DNA of 64,000 nucleotides from an uncultured Candidatus Saccharibacteria bacterium (GCA_964637575.1 CAZWVU010000004.1:14788-78787), one strand, 5' to 3'; counted from the stretch's first letter, positions 3,750 through 21,140 are shown. Notes: generated by a model not told the origin, from the letters alone. A program made the numbers and translations.

Positions 3750-4229
3750 TTATTTAACTACTGGCACCCGCTCCACCTGCCTTGCTTTATCGATAAAAAG
3801 CTTCCCGTTCAGATGGTCGACTTCATGCTGGAAGACGCGGGCGAGCAAGCCCCAGGCTTTGATTTTCAGCGCCTTGCCGTTCTGATCCTGTCCTTTCAGC
3901 ACGAGGCGCGCGGGACGGTCGACCGCGCCGTACACGCCCGGAATGCTCAAGCAGCCTTCATCCATCGACGCGGTTTCTTTGGAAAGCTGGGTGAGTTCGG
4001 GATTGAACACCGCGTAAAATTTATTCTCCACTTTGGCGACAAACACCTTGATATTCAATCCGATTTGGTTCGCGGAGAGACCGATGCCGTCCGCCTGCTG
4101 CATCATCTGGCGCATGGTTTTCACCAGCTCGCGGATTTCTTTTTTGCCGTACGTTGAAAAATCAAAATGCGCAGTGGGCGTGCGCAGGAATTTCTCATCT
4201 TTTTTCTCCGCGGTGGTAACTATTTTCAT
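3750..4229 (-). CDS. def: Peptide deformylase
   Basis: GIGLSANQIG, EGCLS and HEVDHLNG motifs. The true start is probably the internal MKIV, because the upstream ATG lies inside the ATGTGTGGGAT repeat. Confidence 0.9.
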   Translation of the reverse strand: MKIVTTAEKKDEKFLRTPTAHFDFSTYGKKEIRELVKTMRQMMQQADGIGLSANQIGLNIKVFVAKVENKFYAVFNPELTQLSKETASMDEGCLSIPGVYGAVDRPARLVLKGQDQNGKALKIKAWGLLARVFQHEVDHLNGKLFIDKARQVERVPVVK

Positions 4230-4524
4230 CCCACACATAACTTACGCCTGAAGGCTATCGCGAAGACGTTCTTTTAATCTTCGCAATCCCTGGGCGTGAA
4301 GTTTTAATGATTTCTCTCGACTATAGGCATCGCTTTTGGAGCGATAGCCTTCAAAGTATACCAGCTTCCAAGGTAGATATTTTGAGGTGAATTCTGAATC
4401 ACCCTCATTATGTTGAGTTAACCGCTTAGGTAGATCATTGGTGCATCCAATGTAAGTAATGCCGTGCTTCACTGATTTGAGGAGATAGACGTAATGCATG
4501 ATTAGCGTAAGTTATGTGTGGGAT
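4228..4524. repeat. Perfect 20-bp inverted repeat pair (ATCCCACACATAACTTACGC at 4228-4247, GCGTAAGTTATGTGTGGGAT at 4505-4524) enclosing the GIY-YIG gene
   Basis: The sequences are exact reverse complements. The left copy contains the GIY-YIG stop codon. The right copy abuts its start codon. Confidence 0.9.
4242..4499 (-). CDS. Small GIY-YIG nuclease-family protein (YhbQ/URI-like)
   Basis: 85 aa: YVYLLKS...YIGCTNDLPKRLTQHN...YFE matches the GIY-YIG fold. The ORF is exactly bracketed by a 20-bp perfect inverted repeat. Confidence 0.8.
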   Translation of the reverse strand: MHYVYLLKSVKHGITYIGCTNDLPKRLTQHNEGDSEFTSKYLPWKLVYFEGYRSKSDAYSREKSLKLHAQGLRRLKERLRDSLQA

Positions 4525-4527
4525 TCA

Positions 4528-4821
4528 TTATTTCTTCGTTTTTTTCGTTTTGGCCTTCCGCCTGCCTTTCAGGACTCTCATAAAATAGGCGCCCTTGCGG
4601 GTGATGTCCTTTTTTTCGGCGACCGATTTGGCGATGGTCATTACCGTGTGGTCGCCGAGCTGTTTCGCGAGCTTCATATAAAGCCCCTTGTGCTCCTGGT
4701 CATCTAAAATAGAAGCAATTTCGAGCCCTGTCAATTGATACGATTTGGTGATCTTTGATTTGTTTCCCCGGCGTTTCAGTTCATCAAAGTATTCCTTACT
4801 GGATTTAGGAAGCGGACGCAT
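4528..4821 (-). CDS. Hypothetical small basic protein
   Basis: 97-aa ORF with a Lys-rich C-terminus. No recognisable motif. An alternative + strand ORF overlaps it. Confidence 0.35.
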   Translation of the reverse strand: MRPLPKSSKEYFDELKRRGNKSKITKSYQLTGLEIASILDDQEHKGLYMKLAKQLGDHTVMTIAKSVAEKKDITRKGAYFMRVLKGRRKAKTKKTKK

Positions 4822-4837
4822 ATTATCATTGTATCAA

Positions 4838-5404
4838 ATGACGAAAAAGCGCCTTTTCATCGCCATCAATCTTCCCGAACGGATCACGCGCCCGCTTCAA
4901 AAAGAAATCGAGACAATTCAGGAAACCATTGATCCGGGCATCCGGTTTTTGAGCCGGCACACCTGGCACATCACGGTAGCGTTCCTCGGGCAGCAGTCGG
5001 CGGACGATATCAATGCCATTAATAATGTGGTTGCCGACGTCGCGTCACGCTTCGAACCGCCCTCCATCCAGTTCGACAGGATTACCTACGGGCCGGTCGG
5101 ACGCACGCCCCGGATGATCTGGCTCGTAGCCGACCGCGCCACCTCGGAGCGGATTGCCGCGATGAAATCGGAACTGGAGCGCGGGCTGTTTGAAGCGGGG
5201 ATCCAATTTGAGCAGGAGCACCGGCAGTTCCATGCCCACCTGACGCTGGCGCGTTTTGCCGCATTCAACCGCGAATCGCTTGCGCCGCTGGACGTTCCGT
5301 TCCGGCACAGTTATGAGGCGCCGGCGCTTGAGGTGATGGAGTCGCATTCGCAGCGGGGAGACGCCGAGTATGAAATCCTTGCCTCGTATAATTTTTCCGA
5401 GTAA
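4838..5404 (+). CDS. thpR: RNA 2',3'-cyclic phosphodiesterase / 2'-5' RNA ligase family (LigT/ThpR)
   Basis: Two H-x-T/S-x motifs (HITVAF, HLTLAR). ~188 aa from the ATG at 4838. Confidence 0.75.
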   Translation: MTKKRLFIAINLPERITRPLQKEIETIQETIDPGIRFLSRHTWHITVAFLGQQSADDINAINNVVADVASRFEPPSIQFDRITYGPVGRTPRMIWLVADRATSERIAAMKSELERGLFEAGIQFEQEHRQFHAHLTLARFAAFNRESLAPLDVPFRHSYEAPALEVMESHSQRGDAEYEILASYNFSE

Positions 5405-5414
5405 GATTAAGAAA

Positions 5415-6650
5415 ATGTTTCTTAAGAAGCCCATTACCATATGGATCAGCGGCGCGCTTGTCTCGCTGTTGCTAATCGGCGGTTCGCTTTTCGCCGGCTA
5501 CCGGCTGGGCGAGCAGCATCCCGAGGTGGTCACGGTGAAAAACGTCACCAACACCGACGACCCGTCCGTCAGCGCGGATTTCGGTTTGTTCTGGCAGGTG
5601 TGGCACAAACTCAAGGATTATCATATCGACGGCAACAGCATTCCCGACAAGCAGATGGTCTATGGCGCGGTGGCCGGGCTGGTGGATTCGCTCAAGGATC
5701 CTTACACGGTGTTTTTCCCGCCGGCAGAAGCGAAAAAATTCGAGCAGGACGTGAAAGGAAACTTCGGCGGCATCGGCGCCGAAATCGGCATCCGCGACGA
5801 TGTGGTGACCGTGATCGCGCCGCTCAAGGATTCCCCGGCGGAAAAAGCGGGCTTGCGGGCGAAGGACAAAGTCCTCGCCATTGACGGAGCGCCGACCGAC
5901 GGGCTGGGCGTGAATGACGCGGTGGGCAGGATCCGCGGCGAGATCGGCACGAAAGTGACGCTTACCATCTTCCGCGCCGGCTGGGACAAACCGAAGGATT
6001 TTGTGATTGTCCGCGACGAGATCCGCGTGCCGACGATTGATTCGGACGTGAAGGACGGCATCCTCGACGTGAAGTTCTACGCATTTAACCAGAACGCGCC
6101 CCAGCAGTTCTATAACGCGATCGTCAACGGGGCCAACAAGGGCGCCCGGGGGATGGTGCTGGATATGCGTAACAATCCGGGCGGCTATCTGGACGTCGCG
6201 GTGTATCTCGCCGGCTGGTTCCTGCAGAAAGGCGCCACGGTGGTTACCGAGCACGTCCGCAGCGGGCAGGACACCGTCTATACCGCCGACGGCAACGCCG
6301 CGCTCAAGGATTTTCCGGTGGTGCTGCTGCTCAACGGCGGATCCGCGTCCGCGTCTGAAATTCTCGCCGGCGCGCTCCGTGACGACCGCAGCATCAAGAT
6401 CGTGGGCGAAAAATCGTTCGGAAAGGGGACGGTGCAGGAGGTCCAGGACCTCAAGGACGGCTCCACGCTGAAGATCACCATCGCCAAATGGCTGACGCCG
6501 AGCGGCCTCACGATCGACAAGAACGGCCTTGTGCCGGACTATGAAGTAAAGCTGACCGATGACGACGTGAAGAATGACCGGGATCCCCAGCTGGACCGGG
6601 CGATGCAGGTGATCCAGTCGATTGTGGCGAGCAGCACGCCTTCCCAGTAG
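5415..6650 (+). CDS. ctpA: C-terminal processing peptidase (S41) with PDZ domain
   Basis: N-terminal TM segment. PDZ-like GIGAEIG...VIAPLKDSPAEKAGL. S41 core GGSASASEILAGAL...KGTVQ. Confidence 0.85.
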   Translation: MFLKKPITIWISGALVSLLLIGGSLFAGYRLGEQHPEVVTVKNVTNTDDPSVSADFGLFWQVWHKLKDYHIDGNSIPDKQMVYGAVAGLVDSLKDPYTVFFPPAEAKKFEQDVKGNFGGIGAEIGIRDDVVTVIAPLKDSPAEKAGLRAKDKVLAIDGAPTDGLGVNDAVGRIRGEIGTKVTLTIFRAGWDKPKDFVIVRDEIRVPTIDSDVKDGILDVKFYAFNQNAPQQFYNAIVNGANKGARGMVLDMRNNPGGYLDVAVYLAGWFLQKGATVVTEHVRSGQDTVYTADGNAALKDFPVVLLLNGGSASASEILAGALRDDRSIKIVGEKSFGKGTVQEVQDLKDGSTLKITIAKWLTPSGLTIDKNGLVPDYEVKLTDDDVKNDRDPQLDRAMQVIQSIVASSTPSQ

Positions 6651-6660
6651 TCTCCTCCTT

Positions 6661-6763
6661 CGCCAGGACGTCGGGCTACAATCCTGTCTGCGGGAAGAAG
6701 GTATGCTCGTCTTCTGTTCTTCTCCTCGCCAGGACGTCGGGCTACAATCCTGTCTGCGGGAAG
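6661..6763 (+). repeat. Two copies of a 37-nt dispersed repeat (CGCCAGGACGTCGGGCTACAATCCTGTCTGCGGGAAG at 6661-6697 and 6727-6763) separated by 29 nt
   Basis: Exact 37-nt duplication. The same unit recurs at 14038-14074 and 25635-25671. A terminator hairpin follows at ~6796-6826. Confidence 0.85.
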
Positions 6764-6821
6764 AACAGAAGACTTCGCTTTTATTTTTTTTGTGTGGAAA
6801 AAACCGCCGGCATGGGCGGTT

Positions 6822-7148
6822 TTAGTTTTGGGAGGGTTTGGCAAGATCGTTGACCACGTTTTCCTTGCGCTTCTGTTCGGATTTGTACTGCAGCGCGAAG
6901 AGACGGAGCGGCCGGATTTCTTCCTCGCTTCCTTCCAGCGCATGACAATCAATCCGTCCTTCCGAATCGTCGGCGTAGGCGAGCAGAATCACTCCCGGTT
7001 TGGAAATGTCCATGAACGAGCGGCGCGCGCCGCGGTGGTCAATGCAGGCGATAATCGCGGCCCGGGCGGCATCCGCGTCCAGCGGGCGCTTTTCCAGATC
7101 CTTGGTGGTGTCGTCCTTTTCTATTGAAAACGTACGGAGAATGATCAT
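6822..7148 (-). CDS. Hypothetical acidic protein
   Basis: 108-aa ORF divergent from rpmA. Weak resemblance to small regulatory proteins. No firm motif. Confidence 0.4.
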   Translation of the reverse strand: MIILRTFSIEKDDTTKDLEKRPLDADAARAAIIACIDHRGARRSFMDISKPGVILLAYADDSEGRIDCHALEGSEEEIRPLRLFALQYKSEQKRKENVVNDLAKPSQN

Positions 7149-7161
7149 AGCAGTCCTTTCG

Positions 7162-7191
7162 TTGACAATGAGCGTATTCCTGTACTATACT
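7162..7191 (+). promoter_or_regulatory. Sigma70-like promoter upstream of rpmA
   Basis: TTGACA (7162-7167), 18-bp spacer, TATACT (7186-7191). ~25 nt before the rpmA start. Confidence 0.45.
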
Positions 7192-7214
7192 CTTTTTATT
7201 AAATTTTTTAAGCT

Positions 7215-7499
7215 ATGGCACACACTAAATCAGGCGGTTCGACCCGGTTAGGACGCGATTCGGAGTCCAAACGCCTCGGCATAAAAGTAAACGAGAAAGA
7301 AGCCGTAAAAACCGGCGAAATTATTGTCCGCCAGCGCGGCAGCCATGTCCTTCCGGGCGCCAATGTCGCCCAGGGCGGCGATGACACGCTCTACGCGATT
7401 AAAACCGGCGTAGTGAAATTCACGGACGTGAAAAAAACACGTTTTGACGGCACCCGCCGTTACGTCAAGAAAGTCCACGTCATTACTCCGCAGAAATAG
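7215..7499 (+). CDS. rpmA: 50S ribosomal protein L27
   Basis: [16 protein letters not shown]...QRG is the typical L27 N-terminus. Confidence 0.95.
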
Positions 7500-7908
7500 A
7501 AATTTTCGCGATTCCCCTCACTCCCTTCCCGAAATCAACCGGCACCTCATGCGTGCCGGTTTTTCGCAGCGGTTTTTCCAGGCCGATCCTCACTTCGCCA
7601 TATCCTTTGGCGGCCAGCGTTTTCCGGATATCTTCGGCGGTTACCGATCCGAACACTTCGCCCTTAGCACCTGCCTTCACGCGGAATTCCAGGACGTCTT
7701 TCTTGAGCTGCGCGGCGCGCTTGGCATAGCCGTCGATCAGCGCTTTCTCTCCGGCGTCGATGTGCGCTTTCATTTTCATCGCTCCCTCGTCCGCGGGCAC
7801 CGCCAGCTTCCGCGCGAAAAGAAAATTCCGCGCGTAGCCGTCGGCGACTTCCTTCACCTCATTTTTCTTTCCTATTTTTTTAACATCCTGCAATAACAGA
7901 ACTTTCAT
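7483..7908 (-). CDS. rplI: 50S ribosomal protein L9
   Basis: [30 protein letters not shown] is the L9 N-domain signature. 141 aa. Confidence 0.9.
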
Positions 7909-7920
7909 AAGAATAATTGT

Positions 7921-9183
7921 CTATCCGAGACGGTCATTTTGTATGAAGGTAAGGAGTGCCTTGAACCAGAGCCGGATTGCCCGCCAGAACGGCATGATGG
8001 AAAGCAGATAGTTGAGCTCCACCAGTCCTTTGAGCGCCCATCCGGCGAATCCGGAAATAATAAACGGCCCCAGTTTCGCCACCGCCCACTTTCCGCCCAC
8101 CGGCACCACGTAGGGATACTCCGACGCCCGGTACTCGCGGTGGCGGGGATCGCCGGTAATATCGCACCAGACATTGTGAGCCGCCACGTCCGCCTGGGAG
8201 ATGGCCGCGCGCGCCACGCCGGGGACCGGCCGGCCGGTTGTGGGATCGGTGAAACAGATCGCGTCGCCGATGCCGTAGACTTTGCCGTAAAGATTGAGAT
8301 CCGGCGTTTGGGGAAGGCAGCGCATTTGATTTTCCACCTCCACGCGCCCGCGTTTCTCCAGCCTCAACGGCAGGTTGGCCATGAGCGAAGCCGCCTTCAC
8401 GCCGCCGGTCCAGATCAGCAGGTCATACGGCAATTCGCTGCCGCCGGCGAGCAGTATTTTTTCGGGGGCGACTTTGGCAATCGCCTGATCGGTGATGATT
8501 TCCGTGCCGAGCCCTTTCAGGCGGCCCTGGATTTTTTCAACAATAAGTCCGGGAAAGCCGAGCATCAGCGACGGTCCCGCTTCCACGAGCGTGACCCTTA
8601 CCCGGCAGCCGGGAAACTGGTCCGCCAGCTCCGCGAACCATTCCTGGATCTCCCCCGCGAGCTCCACGCCGGTCGAGCCGCCGCCGCCCACCACGATCCG
8701 GACGTCTTTTTTTTGCTGGACCGCCTCCAGCACCGCGTCGCGGATTTTCAGCGAGTCGACGAAGGTTTTGAGTGTGAGCGAATGTTCTTTCAGTCCGGGA
8801 ATATCAAAATAATTCGTTTCGGAACCGAGTGCCAGAATGAGATGGTCGGGGCGGAGCACCCGGCCGTTCACTAGATTCACGTAGCCGTCCTGGAGATCGA
8901 GCGACTGCACTTCCGACTGGATAAATTCCACGCCCATCGGCGCCACAATCGTTTCCACCGGAAAGGTGACCAAGCTTTTGATGTCGGAGTAATTCGCCGT
9001 TTCCTTCGAGGTGGTGGCCGATTCGTACAGCGTCGGCGTGTAGGTGTGATAGGCGTTGCGGTCAACTAGCACCAGTTCGCAGTGTTCCATGCCGCTCCGG
9101 CGGATTTTTTTCGCGAGCACAATGGCCGCGCGGAGACCGCCGAATCCGGCGCCGAGAATGACAATGGTGTTCTTCCGGTTCAT
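7921..9183 (-). CDS. ndh: Type II NADH dehydrogenase / FAD-dependent pyridine nucleotide-disulfide oxidoreductase
   Basis: N-terminal GAGFGG Rossmann motif and a second VVGGGGSTGVE motif. 420 aa. Confidence 0.8.
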   Translation of the reverse strand: MNRKNTIVILGAGFGGLRAAIVLAKKIRRSGMEHCELVLVDRNAYHTYTPTLYESATTSKETANYSDIKSLVTFPVETIVAPMGVEFIQSEVQSLDLQDGYVNLVNGRVLRPDHLILALGSETNYFDIPGLKEHSLTLKTFVDSLKIRDAVLEAVQQKKDVRIVVGGGGSTGVELAGEIQEWFAELADQFPGCRVRVTLVEAGPSLMLGFPGLIVEKIQGRLKGLGTEIITDQAIAKVAPEKILLAGGSELPYDLLIWTGGVKAASLMANLPLRLEKRGRVEVENQMRCLPQTPDLNLYGKVYGIGDAICFTDPTTGRPVPGVARAAISQADVAAHNVWCDITGDPRHREYRASEYPYVVPVGGKWAVAKLGPFIISGFAGWALKGLVELNYLLSIMPFWRAIRLWFKALLTFIQNDRLG

Positions 9184-9249
9184 TATTCATTAGTTTATCA
9201 TCTCCGCCGGAAGTTTGCTTCACGCGGTCGGCAATGAGATAATAAGAAC

Positions 9250-10254: not shown

Positions 10255-10274
10255 AAAATTTTAAATTTAAAATT

Positions 10275-11132: not shown

Positions 11133-11760
11133 AAAGCAAAAGTATTACGCGTGCTACATTCCGGAGACGCAAAAAAAGCTGGTGACGGATATATGGGCGG
11201 AATGCGAATCCCTCGTGAAGGGTGTGCGAGGGGCGCGGTACAAGTCGTTTGATTCCAAAGAAGAAGCCGAGCGGTGGCTGAGGGCCGGTGCCAGTTACGG
11301 GCCGCCGAAAGCGCGCGTGAAAAAAGAGAAGCAAAAAGCGCTGGAGCCGGGAATTTATTTTGACGCGGGGACGGGGAGAGGCGACGGCGTGGAGATCAGC
11401 GTCACTGATGAGAAGGGCAAGAATCTGCTGGATAAAATCCTTCTGCCGGAAGAGCTGAATAAATACGGCAAGCATCTGCTGGAAAGCGAAGAGGCGACGA
11501 ATAATTTTGGCGAACTGCTGGCCTGCCGGTACGCGCTGATGATCGCGATAGACAGCGATATCAAAAAAGTTTTCGGCGACAGCAAGCTCGTCATCGATTA
11601 CTGGTCCAAAGGATTCATCAAAAAGAAGGACGTGGCGCCGGAGACGGTGAAACTGGCGGAAGAAGTGATGAAAATCCGCAACGAATTTGAACTCGCCGGC
11701 GGCTCCCTCGGCCGTGTTTCCGGGGATATTAATCCGGCTGACCTGGGGTTTCATCGCTAG
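11116..11760 (+). CDS. rnhA: Ribonuclease H1 with N-terminal hybrid-binding (caulimovirus VI-like) domain
   Basis: HBD: KYYACY...ECESLVKGVRGARYKSFDSKEEAERWL. RNase H core: YFDAGTGRGDG, TNNFGELLACRYAL, GDSKLVIDYW. Confidence 0.8.
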   Translation: MASKAKKQKYYACYIPETQKKLVTDIWAECESLVKGVRGARYKSFDSKEEAERWLRAGASYGPPKARVKKEKQKALEPGIYFDAGTGRGDGVEISVTDEKGKNLLDKILLPEELNKYGKHLLESEEATNNFGELLACRYALMIAIDSDIKKVFGDSKLVIDYWSKGFIKKKDVAPETVKLAEEVMKIRNEFELAGGSLGRVSGDINPADLGFHR

Positions 11761-11764
11761 GACT

Positions 11765-11894
11765 GTTGGAAAGTTCCCCGGGAACCGGGTGTCCGTCGCG
11801 CTCCTGCGGCGCGACGGCACCACTAAAAACTCGGCAATTTGCAGGGCGCCAAGCCAAATTGCCTCCGTTATTTTCCCTACGGGAACTTTCCAAC
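11765..11894 (+). ncRNA. Copy 1 of an unassigned structured RNA-like element (GGGAACCGGGUGUCC family)
   Basis: 14-bp closing stem (GTTGGAAAGTTCCC / GGGAACTTTCCAAC). Conserved core with two internal hairpins. Covariation with copies at 28057, 41705 and 26268 (minus). Confidence 0.6.
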
Positions 11895-12181
11895 ATCCTT
11901 TTCCATCAATCCCGAACATATTAGGTTGCTGGCGAGGAGAAAGAGGGTGGGCTTGAGCGGCGCGGTTGGAAATAAAAAACCCGGTCAACATTTCTGTTGC
12001 CGGGTTTTGGATACTAACCTTTGCAAATGGAGCTGACGCGGATGATGCTTCCGGGAGCCGGCTTTCCGACGGTTTCCCGAAGGAGCTTGAAAAGGCCGAT
12101 ACGGAGTTTGGTCTTCGCCTTCTTCTCCAGAACCTTTTCAACCCGGACTCGGACGTGCCATTTGATGTGCATGCGGTCTCC

Positions 12182-13561: not shown

Positions 13562-13583
13562 CCCCCGATTCGTCGGGGTTTTT
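13562..13583 (+). terminator. Rho-independent terminator after rnpB
   Basis: CCCCGA-TTCG-TCGGGG hairpin followed by TTTTT. Confidence 0.7.
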
Positions 13584-13656
13584 GATTTCAGATGGGGGAT
13601 TGACAAATAATAATAAATTTGTCATAGTTTCAGCAGTTCATATGGGAGGAGGCGAT

Positions 13657-13992
13657 ATGGCGAAGATTCAAACCGAGGTGGGCGAGGTGAAGCGTGTATG
13701 CGCGCCGAGCTGCAAGAAGAATCTGAAGCATGAGCCGTGCGCATGCACCGAAAAAACGAAGGTGGTAACCAAGGTGGAGATTTTCGCGGTCTTCGAAGGA
13801 GTGCGGCGGTACCGGGCCTATTTCTCCCCGAATCCCAGAAATCCCGGAAGTCTGCCGAGGATTTCCAACAAGGAGCGCTTCAATGAGCAGGGCCAGCCGG
13901 AGGAAGTGAACGTCCAGATTCCGGACACCATCTACGTGGTCATGGCCCGCCGCGCCCTTGCCATCATCAACAGCGGAGCCCCTCAACTATGA
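13657..13992 (+). CDS. Hypothetical Cys-rich small protein
   Basis: GGAGGAGG RBS before the ATG at 13657. CAPSC...CAC cluster. No known domain. Confidence 0.45.
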   Translation: MAKIQTEVGEVKRVCAPSCKKNLKHEPCACTEKTKVVTKVEIFAVFEGVRRYRAYFSPNPRNPGSLPRISNKERFNEQGQPEEVNVQIPDTIYVVMARRALAIINSGAPQL

Positions 13993-14037
13993 GGGGCTTT
14001 TTCTTTCGCAACGCCCGACGCCGGCGCTCCTTCTCCT

Positions 14038-14074
14038 CGGCAGGACGTCGGGCTACAATCCTGCCTGCGGGAAG
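14038..14074 (+). repeat. Solitary copy of the 37-nt dispersed repeat (variant CGGCAGGACGTCGGGCTACAATCCTGCCTGCGGGAAG) with complementary flanks
   Basis: 35/37 identity to the 6661 unit. Flanks GCCGGCGCTCCTT / AAGGAGTGCCGGC can pair. Confidence 0.8.
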
Positions 14075-14156
14075 GAGTGCCGGCTCATTGAGAGAAAGAG
14101 GTAAGTTTGTGTGGATTAGTTTCAAGCGCAAGTGTGTTAAAATTAGACCATACGTT

Positions 14157-15434: not shown

Positions 15435-16506
15435 AACCTCGTTTCTTTCCGGCATCTTCACCCGCGTGCCGATCGAGGATCAGGTGCTTTTGGCGCGCCA
15501 CCTTGCCGTGATGGCGAAGGCCGGGCTGCCGCTCCTGGAAAGCGTGAAGATGATCCAGAAGGAGACGAAGAGCAAGAGTCTGAAAAAAATCCTTGATCAG
15601 GTGGTGGTGGACGTGAGCAACGGCCAGTTTCTTTCCGCGAGCCTGGAAAAGCATAAAAACGTGTTCGGCAATCTTTTCATCAACATTATCCGGGTGGGCG
15701 AGTCGGCGGGCATTCTCGCGGAAAACCTTAATTACCTCGCGGACGAGCTGAAAAAGAAGCGGGAACTGAAGAAAAAAGTGACCGGCGCGCTTATTTATCC
15801 GGCGGTGATTTTTGTGGCCACCTTCGGCATCACCGGATTGCTCACCGTGTTTATCTTCCCGAAAATCCTGCCGATTTTTAAAAGTCTGAACGTCGAATTA
15901 CCGATTACCACGCGGATCCTGATCTGGCTGAGCAACGCGCTCACGAATTACGGCCTGTATCTGATCCTGGGCCTACTGGCATTGCTTCTCGGAATTTATG
16001 GCATCTCGCTGATCCAGAAAGTCCGCTATTTTCTGCACTGGGTATTGCTGAAGCTTCCCATTTTCGGCAACATTTCCCGCAGCGTCAACCTGGCTAATGC
16101 CAGCCGCACGCTCGGCCTCACGCTCAAAAGCGGCGTCCGGGTGGTGGAGGCGGCGACGATCACCGCCGAGTCCCTCACCAACCTTGTCTACCAGCGGGAA
16201 TTACTGAAGGCGGCGGATCTGGTTCAGCGGGGAGAAGCGCTCGGACCGATTCTGGAAAAGCACCCCAAACTTTTTCCCTCGATTGTCACGCAGATGGTCG
16301 CGGTGGGCGAGGCGTCCGGCAATCTAAGCGAAACGCTGCTGTATCTTTCCGACTTCTACGAAGGCGAGGTGAATGAAATTACCAAAAATCTTTCCAACGT
16401 GCTTGAGCCGATTCTGATGGTAACGATGGGCATCGTGGTGGGATTTGTCGCGATTTCCATCATTACGCCGATTTATGAAATCACTTCAAGCATCAGCCCG
16501 CGCTAA
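15427..16506 (+). CDS. pilC: Type IV pilus inner-membrane platform protein PilC/GspF
   Basis: Two GspF repeats. TM segments. Overlaps the pilB stop by 8 nt. Confidence 0.85.
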   Translation: MNKTSFLSGIFTRVPIEDQVLLARHLAVMAKAGLPLLESVKMIQKETKSKSLKKILDQVVVDVSNGQFLSASLEKHKNVFGNLFINIIRVGESAGILAENLNYLADELKKKRELKKKVTGALIYPAVIFVATFGITGLLTVFIFPKILPIFKSLNVELPITTRILIWLSNALTNYGLYLILGLLALLLGIYGISLIQKVRYFLHWVLLKLPIFGNISRSVNLANASRTLGLTLKSGVRVVEAATITAESLTNLVYQRELLKAADLVQRGEALGPILEKHPKLFPSIVTQMVAVGEASGNLSETLLYLSDFYEGEVNEITKNLSNVLEPILMVTMGIVVGFVAISIITPIYEITSSISPR

Positions 16507-16939
16507 GGGGAAGGGCGCGGGGTTCACCCTGCTGGAAACGCTGCTCGTCGTGTCCATTCTGGCGCTGCTGTTCGCGATCGGGTTGCCGGTGGCGTTCAAT
16601 TTCTATCAGGCCTACCAGTTTGATTCGGAATACGAACTCCTTTTTTCCCTACTGGAACAGGCGCGCAATCAGGCGCTGACGAATTATCATGAGGCAAGCC
16701 ACGGTCTTTCCATTAACAGCGTGAACTTCGTGCTGTTTCAGGGTTCCAGTTTCGCCGCGCGCACCGCGGCGCAGGACAAAACCTTTCCCCGCAATTCCGC
16801 CATTACCATCGCCGGCCCCTCGGAAGTGGTCTTCAGCCAGCTGGACGGTACCGTGGCGTCGAGTACGTTTACGGTGAGCAACAGCTACAAAAGCCACGAT
16901 CTTTATTTGAATTCGGAGGGATCGGTGTATTCAAAATAA
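16475..16939 (+). CDS. Prepilin-type (pseudopilin/minor pilin) protein
   Basis: Class III signal KGAGFTLLETLLVVSILAL with Glu at +5. Confidence 0.7.
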   Translation: MKSLQASARAKGKGAGFTLLETLLVVSILALLFAIGLPVAFNFYQAYQFDSEYELLFSLLEQARNQALTNYHEASHGLSINSVNFVLFQGSSFAARTAAQDKTFPRNSAITIAGPSEVVFSQLDGTVASSTFTVSNSYKSHDLYLNSEGSVYSK

Positions 16940-18408
16940 TGAAAATTTTGAATTTAAAATTTACAATTTTAAAAAAAGAAGAAGGGCAGTCGCTTGTTGA
17001 GCTCCTGGTCGCGATCGGCATTTTCAGCATCGCGACGGCCGCCGGCTTCAGTTTATTTTTCGGCGGGCAGATCATCTCCACCGACAGCTCCAATATCAAT
17101 CTGGCCACGGATTACGTCCGGGAGGCGCAGGACGCGCTCCGCGCGATCCGCAACCGCAATTTTACCGAACTGCTCACCGACGGGCCGCACGGCTTTACCT
17201 TCAACGGATCGGAGTGGCTCCTGTCGTCCAGTACCTCTGACACGAAAGATGTGTTTACGCGGCAGGTGAACATCGCCAAGGGGGATTCGGATAACATCAA
17301 GATCGCCACCACCACCGTCACCTGGTCCAGCGCCGATCCCAGCCGGACCGAAAGCCTTACCTTCGTCGAGCAGTTTACCGACTGGGAAACGCCGCTCCAG
17401 AGCAGCTGCAAGTCGCAGGCGCTGACCGGCGACTGGACGAATCCGGTTACGCTTGGTTCGGCGGATATCGGTTCGGGAAATTCCGGGACGGACGTCGTCG
17501 CCAAAGGCAGTTACGCCTACGTGAGCGGTACCGCTTCTTCCGCGAGCAAGCCGGATATTTTTGTGTTTGACGTGAGCGCGCCCGCGGCGCCGGTGCAAAA
17601 GGCTTCACTCAACGTTACCAACGGAGGAATCAACGCGCTTTTCCTGAATGGCAATTACCTCTACGCGGCTTCGCCCGACAACAGCAAGGAATTTCTGGTC
17701 TTTGACGTGACTACCCCGACCAGCATCACTCTCAAGGGTTCGCTGGATTTAACCGGCAACGATGACGCGCTTTCGGTAGTGACGATCGGCACCACTGCGA
17801 TCGTCGGACGGCAAGGAAGTGCCGCCAAACAGATCTCGTTTATTGACGTGAGCGACCCGGCCAATCCGAGCGTGATCAAAGAATTCACCAGTCCCAATGG
17901 CGGCGATATTACCGATCTCGCCTACACGGACAACCGGCTCTACGCGACGAATTATCTTGCCAACGGCACCGCCGACATCCTGACATTCGATATCACCGAT
18001 CCCAGAAACCCCACCTATATCAGCAGTTACGATGTTCCCGCCACGGACAAGCCGCTTTCCGCGTACGTGGAAATCAAAGCGGGCGGCACCAATCTTCTGC
18101 TGGGCGACGGCGACAATGAACTGGTGGCGGTGGGGGCGACAACCACGAGCGGCATGTACGTCCGGAGCCGGGTGAACGTCGGGGGCAAGGTGAATGATAC
18201 CGTCTGCGTGCTGGGCAATCTCGCGTTTCTCGCCACCGATAACCAGAACGCCGAATTTACCGTGGTGAATGTGAATAATCTCAACAGCCTTTCCGTGTAC
18301 TCAACTCTGAATTACCCGAATTTCGCGACCGGAATCGATTTCGACAGCAACAAGGTCTACATGGCGGTGCGAAGCAACGACGCGCTGCGCATTATCACGT
18401 CGCAATAA
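16939..18408 (+). CDS. Large pilin-like protein: prepilin N-terminus fused to LVIVD-repeat beta-propeller (putative pilus tip adhesin)
   Basis: Leader ...EEGQSLVELLVAIGIF with E at +5. Four or more LVIVD-type repeats (IFVFDVSAPAAP, LVFDVTTPTS, ISFIDVSDPANPS, LTFDITDPRNPT). Confidence 0.65.
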   Translation: MKILNLKFTILKKEEGQSLVELLVAIGIFSIATAAGFSLFFGGQIISTDSSNINLATDYVREAQDALRAIRNRNFTELLTDGPHGFTFNGSEWLLSSSTSDTKDVFTRQVNIAKGDSDNIKIATTTVTWSSADPSRTESLTFVEQFTDWETPLQSSCKSQALTGDWTNPVTLGSADIGSGNSGTDVVAKGSYAYVSGTASSASKPDIFVFDVSAPAAPVQKASLNVTNGGINALFLNGNYLYAASPDNSKEFLVFDVTTPTSITLKGSLDLTGNDDALSVVTIGTTAIVGRQGSAAKQISFIDVSDPANPSVIKEFTSPNGGDITDLAYTDNRLYATNYLANGTADILTFDITDPRNPTYISSYDVPATDKPLSAYVEIKAGGTNLLLGDGDNELVAVGATTTSGMYVRSRVNVGGKVNDTVCVLGNLAFLATDNQNAEFTVVNVNNLNSLSVYSTLNYPNFATGIDFDSNKVYMAVRSNDALRIITSQ

Positions 18409-18413
18409 AACTT

Positions 18414-18908
18414 ATGCAGCCAAATTTAAAATTCCGGAACAGGGGGTTCACGCTTATCGAAACGCTTATCTATTCGGCGATCACCACGCTGTTCCTGACC
18501 GCCGCCCTCCTGATGATCTATCAGATGATCAGCAGTCTCCAGCGCGGGAAGAATGAACGGGAACTCGTGGAAAATCAGAAAGTGCTTGAGCAAAAAATTT
18601 ACTGGGCGCTTCAGAGCGTGTCCGCCATCAATTCGCCGGCGGCGAACGCCACTACCACCAGCCTGTCGGTCAACCGATTGAACTACGGCTCGAATCCCAT
18701 CCTGATTGACATGAACGGCGGCGTGGCGCGGATTACGAAAGGAGCGGGAGCGGCCACCCCGGTCACCAATACGTACTCGGATCTCCAGTCCATGACTTTT
18801 CACCAGTACAGCTGGGACGGCCGGCCGGCGATCCGCGTCCAGGCCACACTGGTGAACCACGTCGCGTCCACATCCGTGAGCATCGACACCACCATCATCA
18901 CCAAATGA
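18414..18908 (+). CDS. Prepilin-type minor pilin/pseudopilin
   Basis: RGFTLIETLIYSAITTLFL class III signal. Confidence 0.7.
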   Translation: MQPNLKFRNRGFTLIETLIYSAITTLFLTAALLMIYQMISSLQRGKNERELVENQKVLEQKIYWALQSVSAINSPAANATTTSLSVNRLNYGSNPILIDMNGGVARITKGAGAATPVTNTYSDLQSMTFHQYSWDGRPAIRVQATLVNHVASTSVSIDTTIITK

Positions 18909-19300
18909 CCATTTTAAATTTCCGGGGCGGCTATATCGCCATCACCACTTCCATAATATTATCCATCGTCATTTTGGCGATCGCGGCGGCGCTCGGCAGC
19001 AATCATCTGTTTACCCGGATGAACGTTTCCGATTTTGACGACAAGCAGATGAGCCTGAGTGACGCCCGGTCCTGTCTGGACGAAGCCCGCCTGAAACTTT
19101 CGGATGATTCCAGCTATGCCGGCAATGAAACATTCAGCGTCGGGAGCGACCAGTGCACGATTGTATCCGTCAGCACCTCCGGCTCCAACAAAGTAATTGA
19201 GGCGCAGGCGGCAGTAAGCGGCGCTACCACCGATCTCCAGCTTACGGTGAAGACAGTTGATTTATCCACAGTTTCCTTAGAAGAGCTTCCCAATTTTTGA
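18905..19300 (+). CDS. Putative minor pilin-like protein (no canonical GFxxxE)
   Basis: Hydrophobic N-terminal helix. Located within the pilin gene run. Confidence 0.4.
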   Translation: MTILNFRGGYIAITTSIILSIVILAIAAALGSNHLFTRMNVSDFDDKQMSLSDARSCLDEARLKLSDDSSYAGNETFSVGSDQCTIVSVSTSGSNKVIEAQAAVSGATTDLQLTVKTVDLSTVSLEELPNF

Positions 19301-19306
19301 TATAAT
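19298..19306 (+). promoter_or_regulatory. Extended -10 element (TGATATAAT) upstream of pilA
   Basis: TGnTATAAT match ~45 nt before the pilA start. Confidence 0.4.
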
Positions 19307-19349
19307 TGGATTATTCGCTATTTGAAGCGGGAAAGGTCGTGTAACAATA

Positions 19350-19826
19350 ATGAACAACAACATGAAAAAGAACTCAGGTTTTACCCTCATTGAATTGCTC
19401 GTGGTAATCGGAATTATCGCGATTTTGGCAGGTGTGGTAATCGTAGCGTTGAACCCGGCCCGGCAATTCGCCCAGGCTCGGAACACCCAGCGCTCGGCAA
19501 ACGTGAACGCCATCTTGAACGCAGTCGGTCAGCGTCTGGCTGACAACCGCGGCACATGGCCCGTAGTTGCCGGCGATTGCGCCGCCCTCCCGACCGCGAC
19601 GACGACGATCTCCAGTTCGCAGTACAACATCTACAAGTGCATTGTGCCGAACTACATGAGCAGCCTCCCCGTAGATCCTTCGAACGGTACTCTTACCGAT
19701 GCGACGGATTACGACAGCGGCTATGAGATCGTGAAGGACACGACGACCGGACGGGTTACCGTGAACGCCAAGTACGCGGAAGCCATTGCCGGACTTGCCT
19801 CCACGACGATTTCCGTTTCACGCTAA
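19350..19826 (+). CDS. pilA: Type IV major pilin (copy 1)
   Basis: SGFTLIELLVVIGIIAILAGVV prepilin signal. 158 aa. Confidence 0.85.
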   Translation: MNNNMKKNSGFTLIELLVVIGIIAILAGVVIVALNPARQFAQARNTQRSANVNAILNAVGQRLADNRGTWPVVAGDCAALPTATTTISSSQYNIYKCIVPNYMSSLPVDPSNGTLTDATDYDSGYEIVKDTTTGRVTVNAKYAEAIAGLASTTISVSR

Positions 19827-19832
19827 ATTCCC

Positions 19833-20297
19833 ATGAATAAACAATCAGGTTTTACCCTCATTGAATTGCTCGTGGTAATCGGAATTATCGCGATTTTGGC
19901 AGGTGTGGTAATCGTAGCGTTGAACCCGGCCCGGCAATTCGCCCAGGCTCGGAACACCCAGCGCTCGGCAAACGTGAACGCCATCTTGAACGCAGTCGGT
20001 CAGCGTCTGGCTGACAACCGCGGCACATGGCCCGTAGTTGCCGGCGATTGCGCCGCCCTCCCGACCGCGACGACGACGATCTCCAGTTCGCAGTACAACA
20101 TCTACAAGTGCATTGTGCCGAACTACATGAGCAGCCTCCCCGTAGATCCTTCGAACGGTACTCTTACCGATGCGACGGATTACGACAGCGGCTATGAGAT
20201 CGTGAAGGACACGACGACCGGACGGGTTACCGTGAACGCCAAGTACGCGGAAGCCATTGCCGGACTTGCCTCCACGACGATTTCCGTAAGCAGATAG
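19833..20297 (+). CDS. pilA: Type IV major pilin (copy 2, identical mature protein)
   Basis: ~440 nt identical to copy 1. Differs only in the leader and in synonymous codons of the last 3 residues. Confidence 0.85.
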   Translation: MNKQSGFTLIELLVVIGIIAILAGVVIVALNPARQFAQARNTQRSANVNAILNAVGQRLADNRGTWPVVAGDCAALPTATTTISSSQYNIYKCIVPNYMSSLPVDPSNGTLTDATDYDSGYEIVKDTTTGRVTVNAKYAEAIAGLASTTISVSR

Positions 20298-20310
20298 TCT
20301 GCGAGAAACC

Positions 20311-20336
20311 AAAAAACCGCTTAGGCGGTTTTTTGG
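20311..20336. terminator. Bidirectional Rho-independent terminator between pilA2 and the GT2 gene
   Basis: AAAAAACCGC-TTAG-GCGGTTTTTT. Confidence 0.75.
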
Positions 20337-20338
20337 TT

Positions 20339-21019
20339 TTAGGAGAAAAGTCCGTGCTTCACTATGACCCAGAGCGCCCGGAGGCCGTCAGTCCAGCGGA
20401 TTTTTTTGCCCTCTTCAAACGTGCGCCCATAGTACGAGACGCCGATTTCATAAAACCGCCAGCGTTTTTTACCGAGCTTAATCGTCACTTCCGGTTCGAA
20501 TCCAAAATCTTCTTCAACGAGCCGGACCGACCGGATTGCCTCGCGGCGGAATACTTTATAGCAGGTTTCGATATCGGTAAGGTTGAGGTTGGCAAAAAGA
20601 TTGGTGAGAAAAGTGATGAACCGGTTGGCGAGATAATGGCCGAAGAGCATCACGCGGTGCGGCGAAGACCCGACAAAGCGGGAGCCGTACACCACGTCCG
20701 CCTTTCCTTCCGCGATCGGCTGGATCAGGCGGGGATAATCCGCCGGGTCATATTCCAGATCGGCATCCTGGATAAGGATGATATCGCCGGTCGCCGCGGC
20801 GAGTCCGGTGTGAAGCGCCGCGCCCTTGCCGCGGTTCATTTCGTGACGGAGGACGGTAGCGTTGGGCGCCTGGTAGCCGCGGAGAAACCCGCGCGTGCCG
20901 TCGGTGGAGCAGTCATCCACAATAATAATTTCATCCGGTTTCTGTTCCTGCACTTTTTTCAGGATGAGGGGCAGGGTTTTTTCCTCGTTATAGACGGGAA
21001 TGATTATGGAAAGCTTCAT
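20339..21019 (-). CDS. GT2 glycosyltransferase (polyprenyl-phosphate sugar synthase, DPM1-like)
   Basis: LSIIIPVYNEE, IIIVDDCSTDGT and DADLEYDP (DxD) motifs. Confidence 0.85.
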   Translation of the reverse strand: MKLSIIIPVYNEEKTLPLILKKVQEQKPDEIIIVDDCSTDGTRGFLRGYQAPNATVLRHEMNRGKGAALHTGLAAATGDIILIQDADLEYDPADYPRLIQPIAEGKADVVYGSRFVGSSPHRVMLFGHYLANRFITFLTNLFANLNLTDIETCYKVFRREAIRSVRLVEEDFGFEPEVTIKLGKKRWRFYEIGVSYYGRTFEEGKKIRWTDGLRALWVIVKHGLFS

Positions 21020-21140
21020 CCCGCACATAACAAAGAGTGCGTTTCACGCAATCTTTGCATAAGATCATGCCGCGACTTTTCCTTGGGTTGATTTTGCATA
21101 AATGATTATAAGGTTAATTGCTCTTTGTTATGTGTGGGAT
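21018..21140. repeat. Imperfect 20-bp inverted repeat pair (ATCCCGCACATAACAAAGAG at 21018-21037 and CTCTTTGTTATGTGTGGGAT at 21121-21140) with an 83-bp non-coding spacer
   Basis: 19/20 reverse complement. Shares the core ATCCCRCACATAAC with the GIY-YIG-flanking repeat at 4228/4505. Confidence 0.85.

What the first reader, a model, noticed from the sequence alone, without database searches (positions are those of the whole stretch)
4228..21140. GIY-YIG nuclease gene exactly bracketed by a 20-bp perfect inverted repeat; related cargo-less inverted-repeat pair 17 kb away
ATCCCACACATAACTTACGC (4228-4247) and its exact reverse complement (4505-4524) enclose only the 85-aa GIY-YIG ORF. The ORF's stop codon lies inside the left repeat and its start abuts the right one. 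At 21018-21140 a second pair, ATCCCGCACATAACAAAGAG / CTCTTTGTTATGTGTGGGAT, encloses 83 bp of non-coding sequence. The two pairs share the core ATCCCRCACATAAC but differ in their outer 6 bp. In both loci the left copy supplies an ATGTGTGGGATGAA sequence at the 5' end of a minus-strand gene (def, GT2), which is why both ORFs are predicted to start MCGMK. This could be a miniature GIY-YIG-carrying mobile or homing cassette alongside an empty or decayed site. It could also be a shared promoter or leaderless-start palindrome (TATGTG then ATG).
Basis: seen in the sequence. Interest (0 to 1): 0.6.

Follow-up and report, generated by a model that had tools for sequence, protein, structure and literature searches.

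The report
Hairpin-ended mobile element carrying GIY-YIG nuclease
Both repeat pairs are insertions of one family of tiny mobile elements with hairpin-forming ends. One copy carries an 85-residue nuclease gene and the other has none, and each sits exactly where one gene's stop codon overlaps the next gene's start, leaving both genes intact.

Summary
The core 14-mer occurs four times in the window against 0 expected. Each inverted-repeat pair is the terminus of an inserted element flanked by a 4-bp direct repeat (TGAA on the gene strand).

Related genomes have the same two gene junctions uninterrupted (…TAATGAA…). Those sequences match the window once the element and one TGAA copy are removed.

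Homologous GIY-YIG genes in about 40 other genomes carry the same termini at unrelated sites. The hosts are mostly Patescibacteria, plus Balneolaceae, WOR-3 and a gammaproteobacterium. Some copies lie inside RNase P RNA and 16S rRNA genes. One genome holds two 100% identical copies with unrelated flanks.

Cargo-less copies of 62-137 bp outnumber gene-carrying copies, and internally deleted intermediates exist. So the second window locus is a non-autonomous insertion, not an empty site.

The protein is a divergent relative of SsnA, the hairpin-specific single-stranded-DNA nuclease described in 2025 (44% identity over the catalytic core). Its gene sits inside a single long hairpin rather than between short hairpin repeats, so the published flanking-motif search does not detect it.

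The promoter reading is not supported. That the nuclease mobilises the element, and how, is inferred.

The parts
4229..4523 (-). Element 1 (autonomous type): 295 bp, T-CCCACACATAAC...GTTATGTGTGGG-A, carrying only the GIY-YIG ORF
   Evidence: GC is 42% against 54% for the window; GC3 is 0.41 against 0.59-0.71 in the neighbouring genes. The element is absent from the orthologous junction in L075, L069/70 and L073/74.
4228..4247 (.). Terminal inverted-repeat arm next to def. It contains the GIY-YIG stop codon.
   Evidence: The same arm flanks homologues in other genomes.
4505..4524 (.). Terminal inverted-repeat arm next to ORF97, 5 nt upstream of the GIY-YIG start codon
4242..4499 (-). 85-aa single-domain GIY-YIG nuclease gene, a divergent SsnA relative
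   Evidence: PF01541 E=1.9e-17. 44% identity to the N. gonorrhoeae SsnA orthologue over 64 aa, E=5e-14; hhalign probability 97.7%. 191 homologues at 62-82% identity with catalytic positions invariant.
4225..4228 (.). Target-site duplication copy (TTCA on +, TGAA on -). It overlaps the real def start codon at 4229-4227.
4524..4527 (.). Second copy of the duplication. With 4528-4530 it forms TAATGAA, which holds the ORF97 stop codon.
21019..21139 (-). Element 2 (non-autonomous, cargo-less): 121 bp with the same outer 14 nt, a different but complementary inner 6 nt (AAAGAG/CTCTTT), and an AT-rich interior
   Evidence: It folds as a DNA hairpin with z=-4.8 and -3.75 on the two strands. It is absent from the orthologous ORF519|GT2 junction in L077, L078 and L079. 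Members of the same AAAGA subfamily occur in L025 (two copies), L034, L158, L089, L129, L132, L098 and L149.
21018..21037 (.). Inverted-repeat arm next to the GT2 start
21121..21140 (.). Inverted-repeat arm next to the ORF519 stop
21038..21050 (-). Small GC hairpin (TGCGTGAAACGCA) just inside one arm. Its position is conserved and its stem sequence varies while staying complementary across the AAAGA subfamily.
21015..21018 (.). Target-site duplication copy. It overlaps the real GT2 start codon at 21019-21017.
21140..21143 (.). Second copy of the duplication. With 21144-21146 it forms TAATGAA, which holds the ORF519 stop codon.

Best explanation
Both loci are insertions of one family of very small transposable elements.

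Anatomy. The ends are a roughly 20-bp perfect palindrome. The outer 13-14 nt (TCCCNCACATAAC) are conserved. The inner 6 nt vary between copies but stay complementary. Any single strand of the element can therefore fold into a long stem, with the rest of the element as the loop.

The two copies. Element 1 is the autonomous form. Its loop is filled almost exactly by an 85-aa GIY-YIG nuclease gene related to SsnA. Element 2 is a non-autonomous derivative with a non-coding loop.

Insertion site. Both copies went into a TAATGAA stop/start overlap and duplicated (A)TGAA. The upstream gene keeps its stop codon in one copy of the duplication, and the downstream gene keeps its ATG in the other. The insertion therefore costs neither neighbour its reading frame.

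Inferred steps. The element has no promoter of its own, so the nuclease gene is probably transcribed by read-through from the host operon. By analogy with SsnA, the nuclease probably recognises the base of the stem and the adjacent TTCAT when the DNA is single-stranded or extruded as a cruciform. It would cut next to the hairpin, where the two element-flank junctions lie side by side, and host ligation and repair would finish excision or copying and integration at TGAA. Cargo-less copies would be mobilised in trans because they keep the recognised ends.

Status of each step. Shown: the anatomy, the insertions, the duplication, the target preference, the autonomous and non-autonomous pair, and the homology to SsnA. 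Inferred: that the nuclease is the mobilising enzyme, and the chemistry of transposition.
For: Repeats. Exact repeats at the stated coordinates; 4 core hits against 0 expected.

Empty sites.
- The ORF97|def junction in L075 reads CCCTAATGAATATAGTCACCACGG. The window minus the element and one TGAA reads TAATGAAAATAGTTACCACC. L069/70 and L073/74 are also empty.
- The ORF519|GT2 junction in L077 reads ACTGTAATGAAGCTGTCC. The reconstructed window sequence is ACTGTAATGAAGCTTTCC. L078 and L079 are also empty.

Same termini elsewhere. About 40 of 50 homologues from other genomes, in unrelated contexts, are bracketed by the same kind of termini.

Direct repeats.
- The 4-nt direct repeat is identical on both sides in 27 of 41 elements.
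- Its sequence differs between loci but matches on both sides of each: TGAA, TGGA, TGAG, TCAA.
- TTGA, TATG and TATAA at further loci were read by eye from the flanks printed; no tool counted them.

Gene junctions.
- 35 of 41 elements abut an ATG that opens an ORF of at least 50 aa.
- In 12 of them the upstream gene's stop codon is the TGA inside the left ATGAAT.

Recent movement.
- L046 and L047 share a 329-bp cassette at 100% identity with unrelated flanks.
- Four cassettes in one metagenome-assembled genome are 77-93% identical to each other, while their flanks are about 50% identical.

Metagenome scan.
- 54 distinct elements with a partner arm.
- These are 12 full-size cassettes, 2 internally deleted ones that keep only the C-terminal half of the ORF, and 40 cargo-less copies.

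Protein. 44% identity to the NTS-flanked N. gonorrhoeae SsnA orthologue, E=5e-14, hhalign probability 97.7%. SsnA biochemistry is from PMC11893778.

Composition. Both elements have foreign base composition.
Against: - No GIY-YIG enzyme is known to carry out strand transfer. These enzymes hydrolyse DNA, so host factors must be invoked.
- A true staggered-cut duplication cannot be told apart from 'target tetranucleotide plus an identical tetranucleotide carried at the element's end', as in some IS200/IS605 elements.
- 14 of 41 elements lack a matching left repeat.
- Cassettes inside rnpB and 16S rRNA genes show no duplication.
- SsnA cuts several nucleotides further from its hairpin than the element boundary inferred here.
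- Mismatches in the stems show no strand bias (11 against 8, p=0.65). Folding of single-stranded DNA of one particular strand is therefore not demonstrated.
- Whole genomes could not be inspected to exclude a separate transposase.
Confidence: 0.72

Rival explanations
1. The inverted-repeat units are ordinary MITE-like elements moved by a conventional transposase encoded elsewhere. On this reading the GIY-YIG gene is only a passenger, or an addiction or defence gene.
For: GIY-YIG nucleases have no known strand-transfer activity. Cargo-less copies outnumber gene-carrying ones by about 3:1. Target duplications of 4-5 bp are typical of DDE transposition.
Against: The ORF is integrated into the ends: its stop codon lies in one arm and its start is 5 nt from the other. 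No other cargo was ever seen among about 50 cassettes across several phyla. The termini change together with the protein clade, for example CCCACAC, CCCAGCAC and CCCTCACC types. The protein's nearest characterised relative recognises hairpin repeats that flank its own gene. No transposase gene was seen in the gene tables listing Pfam families for the fetched loci.
Confidence: 0.13
2. The gene is a free-standing homing endonuclease gene. The nuclease cuts the empty TAATGAA allele, and the cassette is copied in by homologous double-strand-break repair. The repeats are incidental.
For: GIY-YIG enzymes are classic homing endonucleases. The same junction type (holB|frr) is occupied in two different genomes. 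The ORF97|def junction carries different elements in different lineages.
Against: Copies lie at many non-homologous loci within one genome. Short direct repeats flank them. Cargo-less and internally deleted derivatives keep only the ends. The protein has no DNA-binding extension, and TIGR01453 scores far below its cut-off. The J Bacteriol 2024 survey also judged the GIY-YIG inserts in CPR rRNA genes to lie outside homing.
Confidence: 0.07
3. This is a domesticated Ssn-like system. The hairpins are genomic marks that the nuclease cuts on incoming or single-stranded DNA, for example to modulate transformation as in Neisseria. Mobility is past or incidental.
For: This is the function shown for SsnA and NTS. 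Natural competence in Saccharibacteria is stated in the abstract of a preprint listed (PMC10187176); that paper was not read further. The ORF is under purifying selection, with invariant catalytic residues across 19 sequences.
Against: Only two to three such hairpins occur in 64 kb, far fewer than the hundreds of NTS copies in Neisseria. 100% identical paralogues with unrelated flanks point to ongoing movement. Pseudogenised and deleted copies behave like decaying selfish elements.
Confidence: 0.06
4. The palindrome is a regulatory element: a promoter, a leaderless-start signal, or an RNA stem processed by RNase III. On this reading it belongs to def and GT2 rather than to a mobile element.
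For: The arm supplies the sequence immediately upstream of both start codons. The stem would also form in the polycistronic RNA. The same stem replaces P3 of RNase P RNA and the V1 hairpin of 16S rRNA in other genomes, where an RNA-level role is plausible.
Against: Orthologous def and GT2 genes have no such sequence; they start directly at a TAATG overlap. No promoter-like site lies in either element. The motif occurs nowhere else in the window.
Confidence: 0.02

Closest known systems
Ssn nucleases and their NTS/SRM hairpin repeats (Chenal et al. 2025, PMC11893778)
   Same: Both are single-domain GIY-YIG proteins of about 90 aa. The window protein has 44% identity to the gonococcal SsnA orthologue over the catalytic core. 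In both cases the gene is bracketed by hairpin-forming repeats. The stem base and flank resemble each other: (G/T)TCAT-(T)CCCGC...GCGGG(A)-AT(T)C. The authors already noted an IS-like NTS-ssnA-NTS layout.
   Different: Here the gene lies inside one hairpin with a 270-nt loop, not between complete short hairpins. The published SRM search pattern finds nothing at these elements. The C-terminal 20 residues (LHAQGLRRLKERL...) are unrelated to those of SsnA. This case also has direct evidence of insertion (empty sites and duplications) and a defined target, neither of which was reported for Ssn.
RAYT transposases with REP/REPIN repeats
   Same: A single gene is flanked by inverted copies of a short repeat. 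The same repeat also occurs as cargo-less inverted doublets that are thought to be mobilised in trans.
   Different: The enzyme there is an HUH tyrosine transposase, not a GIY-YIG nuclease. REPINs are far more numerous per genome, and no target duplication or stop/start-overlap targeting is known for them (my knowledge).
IS200/IS605 single-strand 'peel and paste' elements
   Same: Both are very small elements with one small nuclease gene, and both are likely to depend on hairpins in single-stranded DNA. Both integrate next to a specific tetra- or pentanucleotide.
   Different: IS200/IS605 have subterminal hairpins at each end, not terminal inverted repeats. They produce no duplication and use a covalent HUH mechanism (my knowledge).
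MITEs such as Neisseria Correia elements and Rickettsia palindromic elements
   Same: Both are units of about 100-150 bp with terminal inverted repeats and a short duplication, inserted at gene boundaries and co-transcribed. Rickettsia elements also sit inside RNA and protein genes.
   Different: Those elements have no cognate gene inside any copy. Correia elements duplicate TA (my knowledge).
Non-intron insertions in CPR rRNA genes that encode GIY-YIG proteins (PMC11270868)
   Same: L062 is such a case: the cassette lies in the V1 hairpin of a 16S rRNA gene.
   Different: That survey reports no inverted repeats (0 occurrences of the term) and does not link the rRNA inserts to copies between protein genes.

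Membership tests
Ssn nuclease family (cd10448) | Single-domain GIY-YIG protein of about 90-100 aa | tested here: met
   85 aa. PF01541 covers residues 1-68 with E=1.9e-17 and there is no other domain.
Ssn nuclease family (cd10448) | blastp to SsnA with E<1e-10 and at least 75% query coverage (the paper's criterion) | tested here: inconclusive
   Against the N. gonorrhoeae orthologue (L076 989-1273), E=5e-14 in a one-to-one comparison, but only residues 5-68 of 94 align, which is 68%. hhalign probability is 97.7%.
Ssn nuclease family (cd10448) | Top CDD assignment to cd10448 | not testable with these tools
   No CDD/rpsblast is available. NCBIfam gives no hit above its cut-offs.
Ssn nuclease family (cd10448) | Gene flanked on both sides by SRM hairpin motifs (HGTCWY...RNCYNB) | tested here: not met
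   The regex finds 9 hits in 2.2 kb around gonococcal ssnA. It finds only one unrelated hit in the window (35626) and 13 in 748 kb of the other loci.
Ssn nuclease family (cd10448) | Site-specific cleavage of single-stranded DNA next to the hairpin | not testable with these tools
   Biochemistry is required.
Transposable element with terminal inverted repeats (IS/MITE type) | Terminal inverted repeats | tested here: met
   20/20 and 19/20 in the window; 14-24 bp in about 40 other cassettes.
Transposable element with terminal inverted repeats (IS/MITE type) | Target-site duplication | tested here: met
   TGAA on both sides of both window elements. Identical 4-nt repeats in 27 of 41 elements, with sequences that differ between loci. 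In the scan, 52 of 54 elements match, but that scan was biased by its query.
Transposable element with terminal inverted repeats (IS/MITE type) | Uninterrupted (empty) orthologous sites | tested here: met
   L075, L069/70 and L073/74 for locus 1. L077, L078 and L079 for locus 2.
Transposable element with terminal inverted repeats (IS/MITE type) | Several copies in one genome with unrelated flanks | tested here: met
   L046/L047 are 100% identical. The four JAHILT01 copies are 77-93% identical, with flanks about 50% identical.
Transposable element with terminal inverted repeats (IS/MITE type) | Encodes a recognised transposase (DDE, HUH, serine or tyrosine) | tested here: not met
   The only ORF is the GIY-YIG domain.
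GIY-YIG homing endonucleases (I-TevI/Seg type) | Nuclease domain joined to a DNA-binding domain; one conserved homing site | tested here: not met
   85 aa with no extension. TIGR01453 scores 14.7 bits against a cut-off of 56. Insertion sites are many and unrelated.
   1zg2 scores 27 bits and 1ywl 23 bits, both weaker than SsnA at 48 bits.
Promoter or leaderless-start element | Promoter-like hexamers, and conservation upstream of orthologous genes | tested here: not met
   0 promoter-like sites in 20800-21400 and none inside element 1. The sequence is absent upstream of orthologous def and GT2.

The most novel reading that the evidence does not exclude
This may be a previously unrecognised class of prokaryotic transposon whose only protein is an 85-residue GIY-YIG nuclease, which would be a new kind of transposase. 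It would move as a hairpin whose stem brings both ends together. It targets ATGA/TAATG stop-start overlaps, so that the duplication leaves both neighbouring genes intact. It can also replace a helix inside structured RNA genes (RNase P RNA P3 and the 16S rRNA V1 hairpin). If so, it would supply the missing evidence that Ssn-type nucleases and their hairpin repeats are mobile elements.
Probability: 0.45. Interest if true: 0.85.

Novelty: new variant of a known kind. Interest (0 to 1): 0.72.

Why it matters
The 2025 Ssn paper showed that small GIY-YIG nucleases cut single-stranded DNA next to hairpin repeats that flank their own genes. It could only speculate that the unit was once an insertion sequence.

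The element here gives comparative evidence of movement: empty sites, duplications, identical paralogues, and non-autonomous and deleted derivatives. It also has a simple, testable anatomy, with one hairpin, one 85-aa protein and a 4-5-nt target.

If the nuclease drives transposition, it would be the smallest known autonomous DNA transposon, with an enzyme type not known to do this. The hairpin and nuclease pair would be of interest as a single-stranded-DNA tool.

There is also a practical consequence for annotation. The repeat carries an in-frame ATG that makes gene callers extend the downstream gene (the 'MCGMK' starts). The published SRM motif search does not detect these elements.

Tried and rejected
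- Strand bias of stem mismatches, to tell which strand folds or whether RNA is involved. A first count by eye suggested 9:2. The scripted count was 11:8 with 11 other mismatches, which is not significant.
- Viral contigs as a vector. Only one distant hit was found, so I dropped this.
- NCBIfam and PDB sequence searches, to name the protein. Nothing passed the NCBIfam cut-offs, and the only PDB matches were weak UPF0213 and SLX1 hits.
- Supplementary tables of the Ssn paper, to see whether Patescibacteria were included. None are held.
- The published SRM regex on the window. It gave one unrelated hit.
- Conservation of the interiors of cargo-less elements. The interiors are not conserved apart from a small subterminal hairpin in one subfamily, so I could not assign the loop a function.
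- The idea that GIY-YIG orientation is absolute relative to the ATGAA flanks. One reversed cassette (L083) exists. Co-orientation is therefore more likely selected than mechanistic.
- Rfam on the window. It found only four tRNAs and no known RNA family at either element.


Full report
**Observation.** ATCCCACACATAACTTACGC lies at 4228-4247 and its exact reverse complement at 4505-4524. ATCCCGCACATAACAAAGAG lies at 21018-21037 and CTCTTTGTTATGTGTGGGAT at 21121-21140, with 83 bp between them. The shared 14-mer has four hits in the window against none in 100 shuffles. A looser 12-mer search adds nothing beyond chance. The only ORF between the first pair is an 85-aa GIY-YIG domain protein on the minus strand (4242-4499; PF01541 E=1.9e-17). 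Its stop codon lies inside one arm and its start codon 5 nt from the other. The neighbours are def and fmt on one side and a 97-aa hypothetical protein and a LigT-like gene on the other. At the second pair the neighbours are a GT2 glycosyltransferase and a 519-aa membrane protein. The organism is a Paceibacteria-like member of the Patescibacteria, judged from the names of homologous proteins and loci.

Read on the minus strand, which is the coding strand of all the genes involved, both loci have the same layout. The upstream gene ends in ...TAATGAA. Then comes TCCCACACATAAC ... GTTATGTG(T/C)GGGA, followed by TGAA and the rest of the downstream gene. A 4-nt direct repeat (TGAA) therefore flanks each inverted-repeat unit. 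Removing the unit and one repeat copy leaves TAATGAA, an ordinary overlap of a stop codon with the next gene's ATG.

**Empty sites.** I tested this reconstruction in relatives.
- *Locus 1.* Homologues of the 97-aa protein led to syntenic contigs with the order LigT, small ORF, def, fmt. In L075 the junction reads CCCTAATGAATATAGTCACCACGG, with stop and start overlapping. The window minus element 1 and one TGAA reads TAATGAAAATAGTTACCACC. L069/L070 and L073/L074 are also uninterrupted. L071/L072 carry a different 118-nt inverted-repeat unit (ATCCCGCTTAGAAA...TTTCTAACGGGAT) at the same junction.
- *Locus 2.* Homologues of the 519-aa protein gave three syntenic contigs in which it overlaps GT2 directly. 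L077 reads ACTGTAATGAAGCTGTCC, and the reconstructed window sequence is ACTGTAATGAAGCTTTCC.

Both window units are therefore insertions. The second locus is not an empty site. The true starts of def and GT2 are the ATGs at 4229-4227 and 21019-21017. The 'MCGMK' N-termini come from an ATG inside the repeat.

**The cassette elsewhere.**
- *Homologues.* The protein has 191 close homologues at 62-82% identity. A profile search finds 3,660 cluster representatives at E<=1e-10.
- *Gene contexts.* The contexts of homologues differ: holB|frr, an aminoacyl-tRNA synthetase|EPSP synthase, and iPGM next to a convergent gene. The same arms still bracket the gene.
- *Species-representative genomes.* In 50 loci, about 40 homologues are bracketed by 14-24-bp inverted repeats.
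- *Termini by clade.* The terminal consensus is (A)(T/C)CCC-N-CAC(A/T)TAAC in Paceibacteria. Related variants occur in other clades: CCCAGCAC..., CCCCGCAC..., CCCTCACC.... The hosts include Saccharibacteria, Balneolaceae, WOR-3, Omnitrophota, a gammaproteobacterium and a Desulfobacteraceae genome.
- *Stop codon.* The stop codon normally lies in the downstream arm.

**Evidence of movement.**
- *Direct repeats.* Across 41 elements of the Patescibacteria type, 27 have identical 4-nt direct repeats. The repeat sequence varies by locus while matching on both sides of each element: TGAA in most, TGGA in L009 and L026, TGAG twice in L034, TCAA in L060. Reading by eye the flanks printed, I also see matching TCAA (L063), TTGA (L054, L056), TATG (L047) and TATAA (L052, L053). 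No tool counted those.
- *Gene junctions.* 35 of 41 elements abut an ATG that opens an ORF of at least 50 aa. In 12 of them the upstream gene's stop is the TGA inside the left ATGAAT, so the ancestral site was an ATGA overlap.
- *Paralogues.* Copies within one genome have unrelated flanks. L046 and L047 are 100% identical over 329 bp. Four cassettes of one metagenome-assembled genome are 77-93% identical, against about 50% for their flanks.
- *Metagenome scan.* A scan for ATGAATCCCACACATAAC returned 109 stretches. Among 54 distinct elements with a partner arm, 12 are full-size cassettes (one reversed, one frameshifted). Two are internally deleted and keep only the C-terminal half of the ORF. 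Forty are cargo-less units of 62-137 nt.
- *The window's cargo-less type.* The inner arm of element 2 (AAAGAG/CTCTTT) defines a subfamily also found in L025 (two copies), L034, L158 and others. The interiors are not conserved, except for a small GC hairpin just inside one arm.
- *Composition.* Both window elements differ from their surroundings: GC 42% and 40% against 54%, and GC3 0.41 against 0.59-0.71.

**What the protein is.** A literature search found the Ssn family (PMC11893778). These are single-domain GIY-YIG proteins of about 94 aa that bind a hairpin repeat (NTS/SRM) in single-stranded DNA and cut beside it. Their genes are typically flanked by those repeats. The authors remark that NTS-ssnA-NTS looks like an insertion sequence. 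A tblastn search of the plasmid collection happened to hit N. gonorrhoeae chromosomes filed as plasmids. The hit is a 94-aa ORF with NTS copies immediately around it, and the published SRM pattern matches nine times in 2.2 kb there. I take this to be the SsnA orthologue. The window protein is 44% identical to it over 64 residues (E=5e-14; hhalign probability 97.7%). The C-terminal 20 residues differ, and coverage is 68%, below the paper's 75% criterion. Similarity to solved UPF0213 proteins is weaker. The SRM pattern does not match the window elements. Even so, the stem base and flank look alike: TTCAT-CCCGCAC...GTGTGGG-ATTCA here against GTCAT-TCCCGC...GCGGGA-ATC in the NTS. The paper also reports that cleavage still works when the hairpin is split between two oligonucleotides. 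I read the cassette as an NTS-like hairpin with the nuclease gene in its loop. That reading is an inference.

**How it probably works.** What is shown is the anatomy, the insertions, the duplication and target preference, the autonomous and non-autonomous pair, and the homology. The remaining steps are inferred.
- The gene is transcribed by read-through. There is no room for a promoter, none is predicted, and the ORF is co-oriented with the flanking operon in all but one case.
- The nuclease recognises the folded ends. The fold is predicted on either strand, with z=-4.8 and -3.75.
- It cuts where the stem brings the two junctions together, and host enzymes complete the reaction.

Three things I could not settle. 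First, whether one particular strand folds, because mismatch types show no bias. Second, whether the flanking repeat is a true duplication or a target tetranucleotide plus a matching element end. Third, whether a separate transposase exists elsewhere in these genomes.

**Rivals.**
- A passenger gene in a conventional MITE is possible. It does not explain why the ORF is built into the ends, why no other cargo is ever seen, or why the termini change with the protein clade.
- Classical homing does not fit the many unrelated sites, the short duplications and the cargo-less derivatives.
- A domesticated Ssn-like role on incoming DNA cannot be excluded, but the repeat density is low.
- The promoter or leaderless-start idea is contradicted by the empty orthologous junctions and by the same termini occurring inside RNA genes.

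**RNA genes.** In two Balneolaceae genomes and a WOR-3 genome the cassette occupies the P3 hairpin of RNase P RNA. P1 and P2 lie upstream and GGAAAGTCC immediately downstream. In L062 it occupies the V1 hairpin of a 16S rRNA gene as a 290-nt insert. No duplication is seen at these sites. A 2024 survey had noted GIY-YIG ORFs in non-intron rRNA insertions of CPR bacteria, without mentioning repeats.

**Novelty.** No paper in the searchable library describes a GIY-YIG hairpin element with target duplications. It is best filed as a new variant of the Ssn and hairpin-repeat kind, with the first direct comparative evidence of mobility.

Noticed in passing
window 57572-57670: A third CCC...GGG inverted pair (CCCCCGCTCTG / CAGAGCGGGGG, 11 bp exact, 99-nt span). 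It is flanked by a TTGA direct repeat and is intergenic, just after an ORF that ends at 57564. It may be another non-autonomous hairpin element of a different subfamily.
   Followed up: partly
L045 5967-6270, L065 5968-6274, L049 5977-6273: The GIY-YIG cassette occupies the P3 hairpin of the RNase P RNA gene in two Balneolaceae genomes and a WOR-3 genome. P1 and P2 lie upstream and GGAAAGTCC directly downstream. The L065 ORF is a pseudogene, but its arms are intact.
   Followed up: partly
L062 5955-6264: The cassette sits in the V1 hairpin of a 16S rRNA gene as a 290-nt insert, with an intact 81-aa ORF.
   Followed up: partly
L071/L072 4293-4400: A different 118-nt inverted-repeat unit (ATCCCGCTTAGAAA...TTTCTAACGGGAT) lies at the same ORF|def junction that carries the GIY-YIG cassette in the window. 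The related CCCGTTAGA termini also occur in L020, L034 and L047.
   Followed up: partly
L005 10001-10403, L019, L036, L039, L048: An alternative layout: a GIY-YIG gene without flanking arms, followed directly by a cargo-less hairpin unit. The gene's stop codon lies in the unit's left ATGAA.
   Followed up: partly
L083 (element of 293 nt, minus strand): This is the one cassette in which the GIY-YIG ORF is reversed relative to the ATGAA flanks. Here the right junction ATG opens only a 24-codon ORF, so this copy is not at the start of a recognisable downstream gene.
   Followed up: no
window 6650-6700, 6716-6766, 14027-14077, 25624-25674: Four copies of a 51-nt palindromic repeat (CTCCTTCTCCTCGCCAGGACGTCGGGCTACAATCCTGTCTGCGGGAAGGAG), unrelated in sequence to the finding.
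   Followed up: no
window 11746-11913, 26343-26416, 28071-28175: A 74-105-nt repeat present three times at 83-89% identity. One copy is bracketed by a 33-nt inverted repeat.
   Followed up: no
window 19350-19826 and 19833-20297: Two tandem pilin-like ORFs that are 99% identical over 300 nt, which points to a recent tandem duplication.
   Followed up: no
window 3411-3754, 10257, 16944, 34274 and others: An AT-rich AATTTTAAATTT-type motif recurs in intergenic regions of this otherwise 54% GC window. It may be a promoter or UP-like element.
   Followed up: no
one search hit list; L058 5995-6675: Many family members are 210-290 aa, with the GIY-YIG domain at the N-terminus and an uncharacterised C-terminal extension.
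   Followed up: no
L076 (NZ_CP119140.1): The plasmid collection holds 2.17-Mb N. gonorrhoeae chromosomes labelled as plasmids. This was useful here as a source of the ssnA locus.
   Followed up: yes
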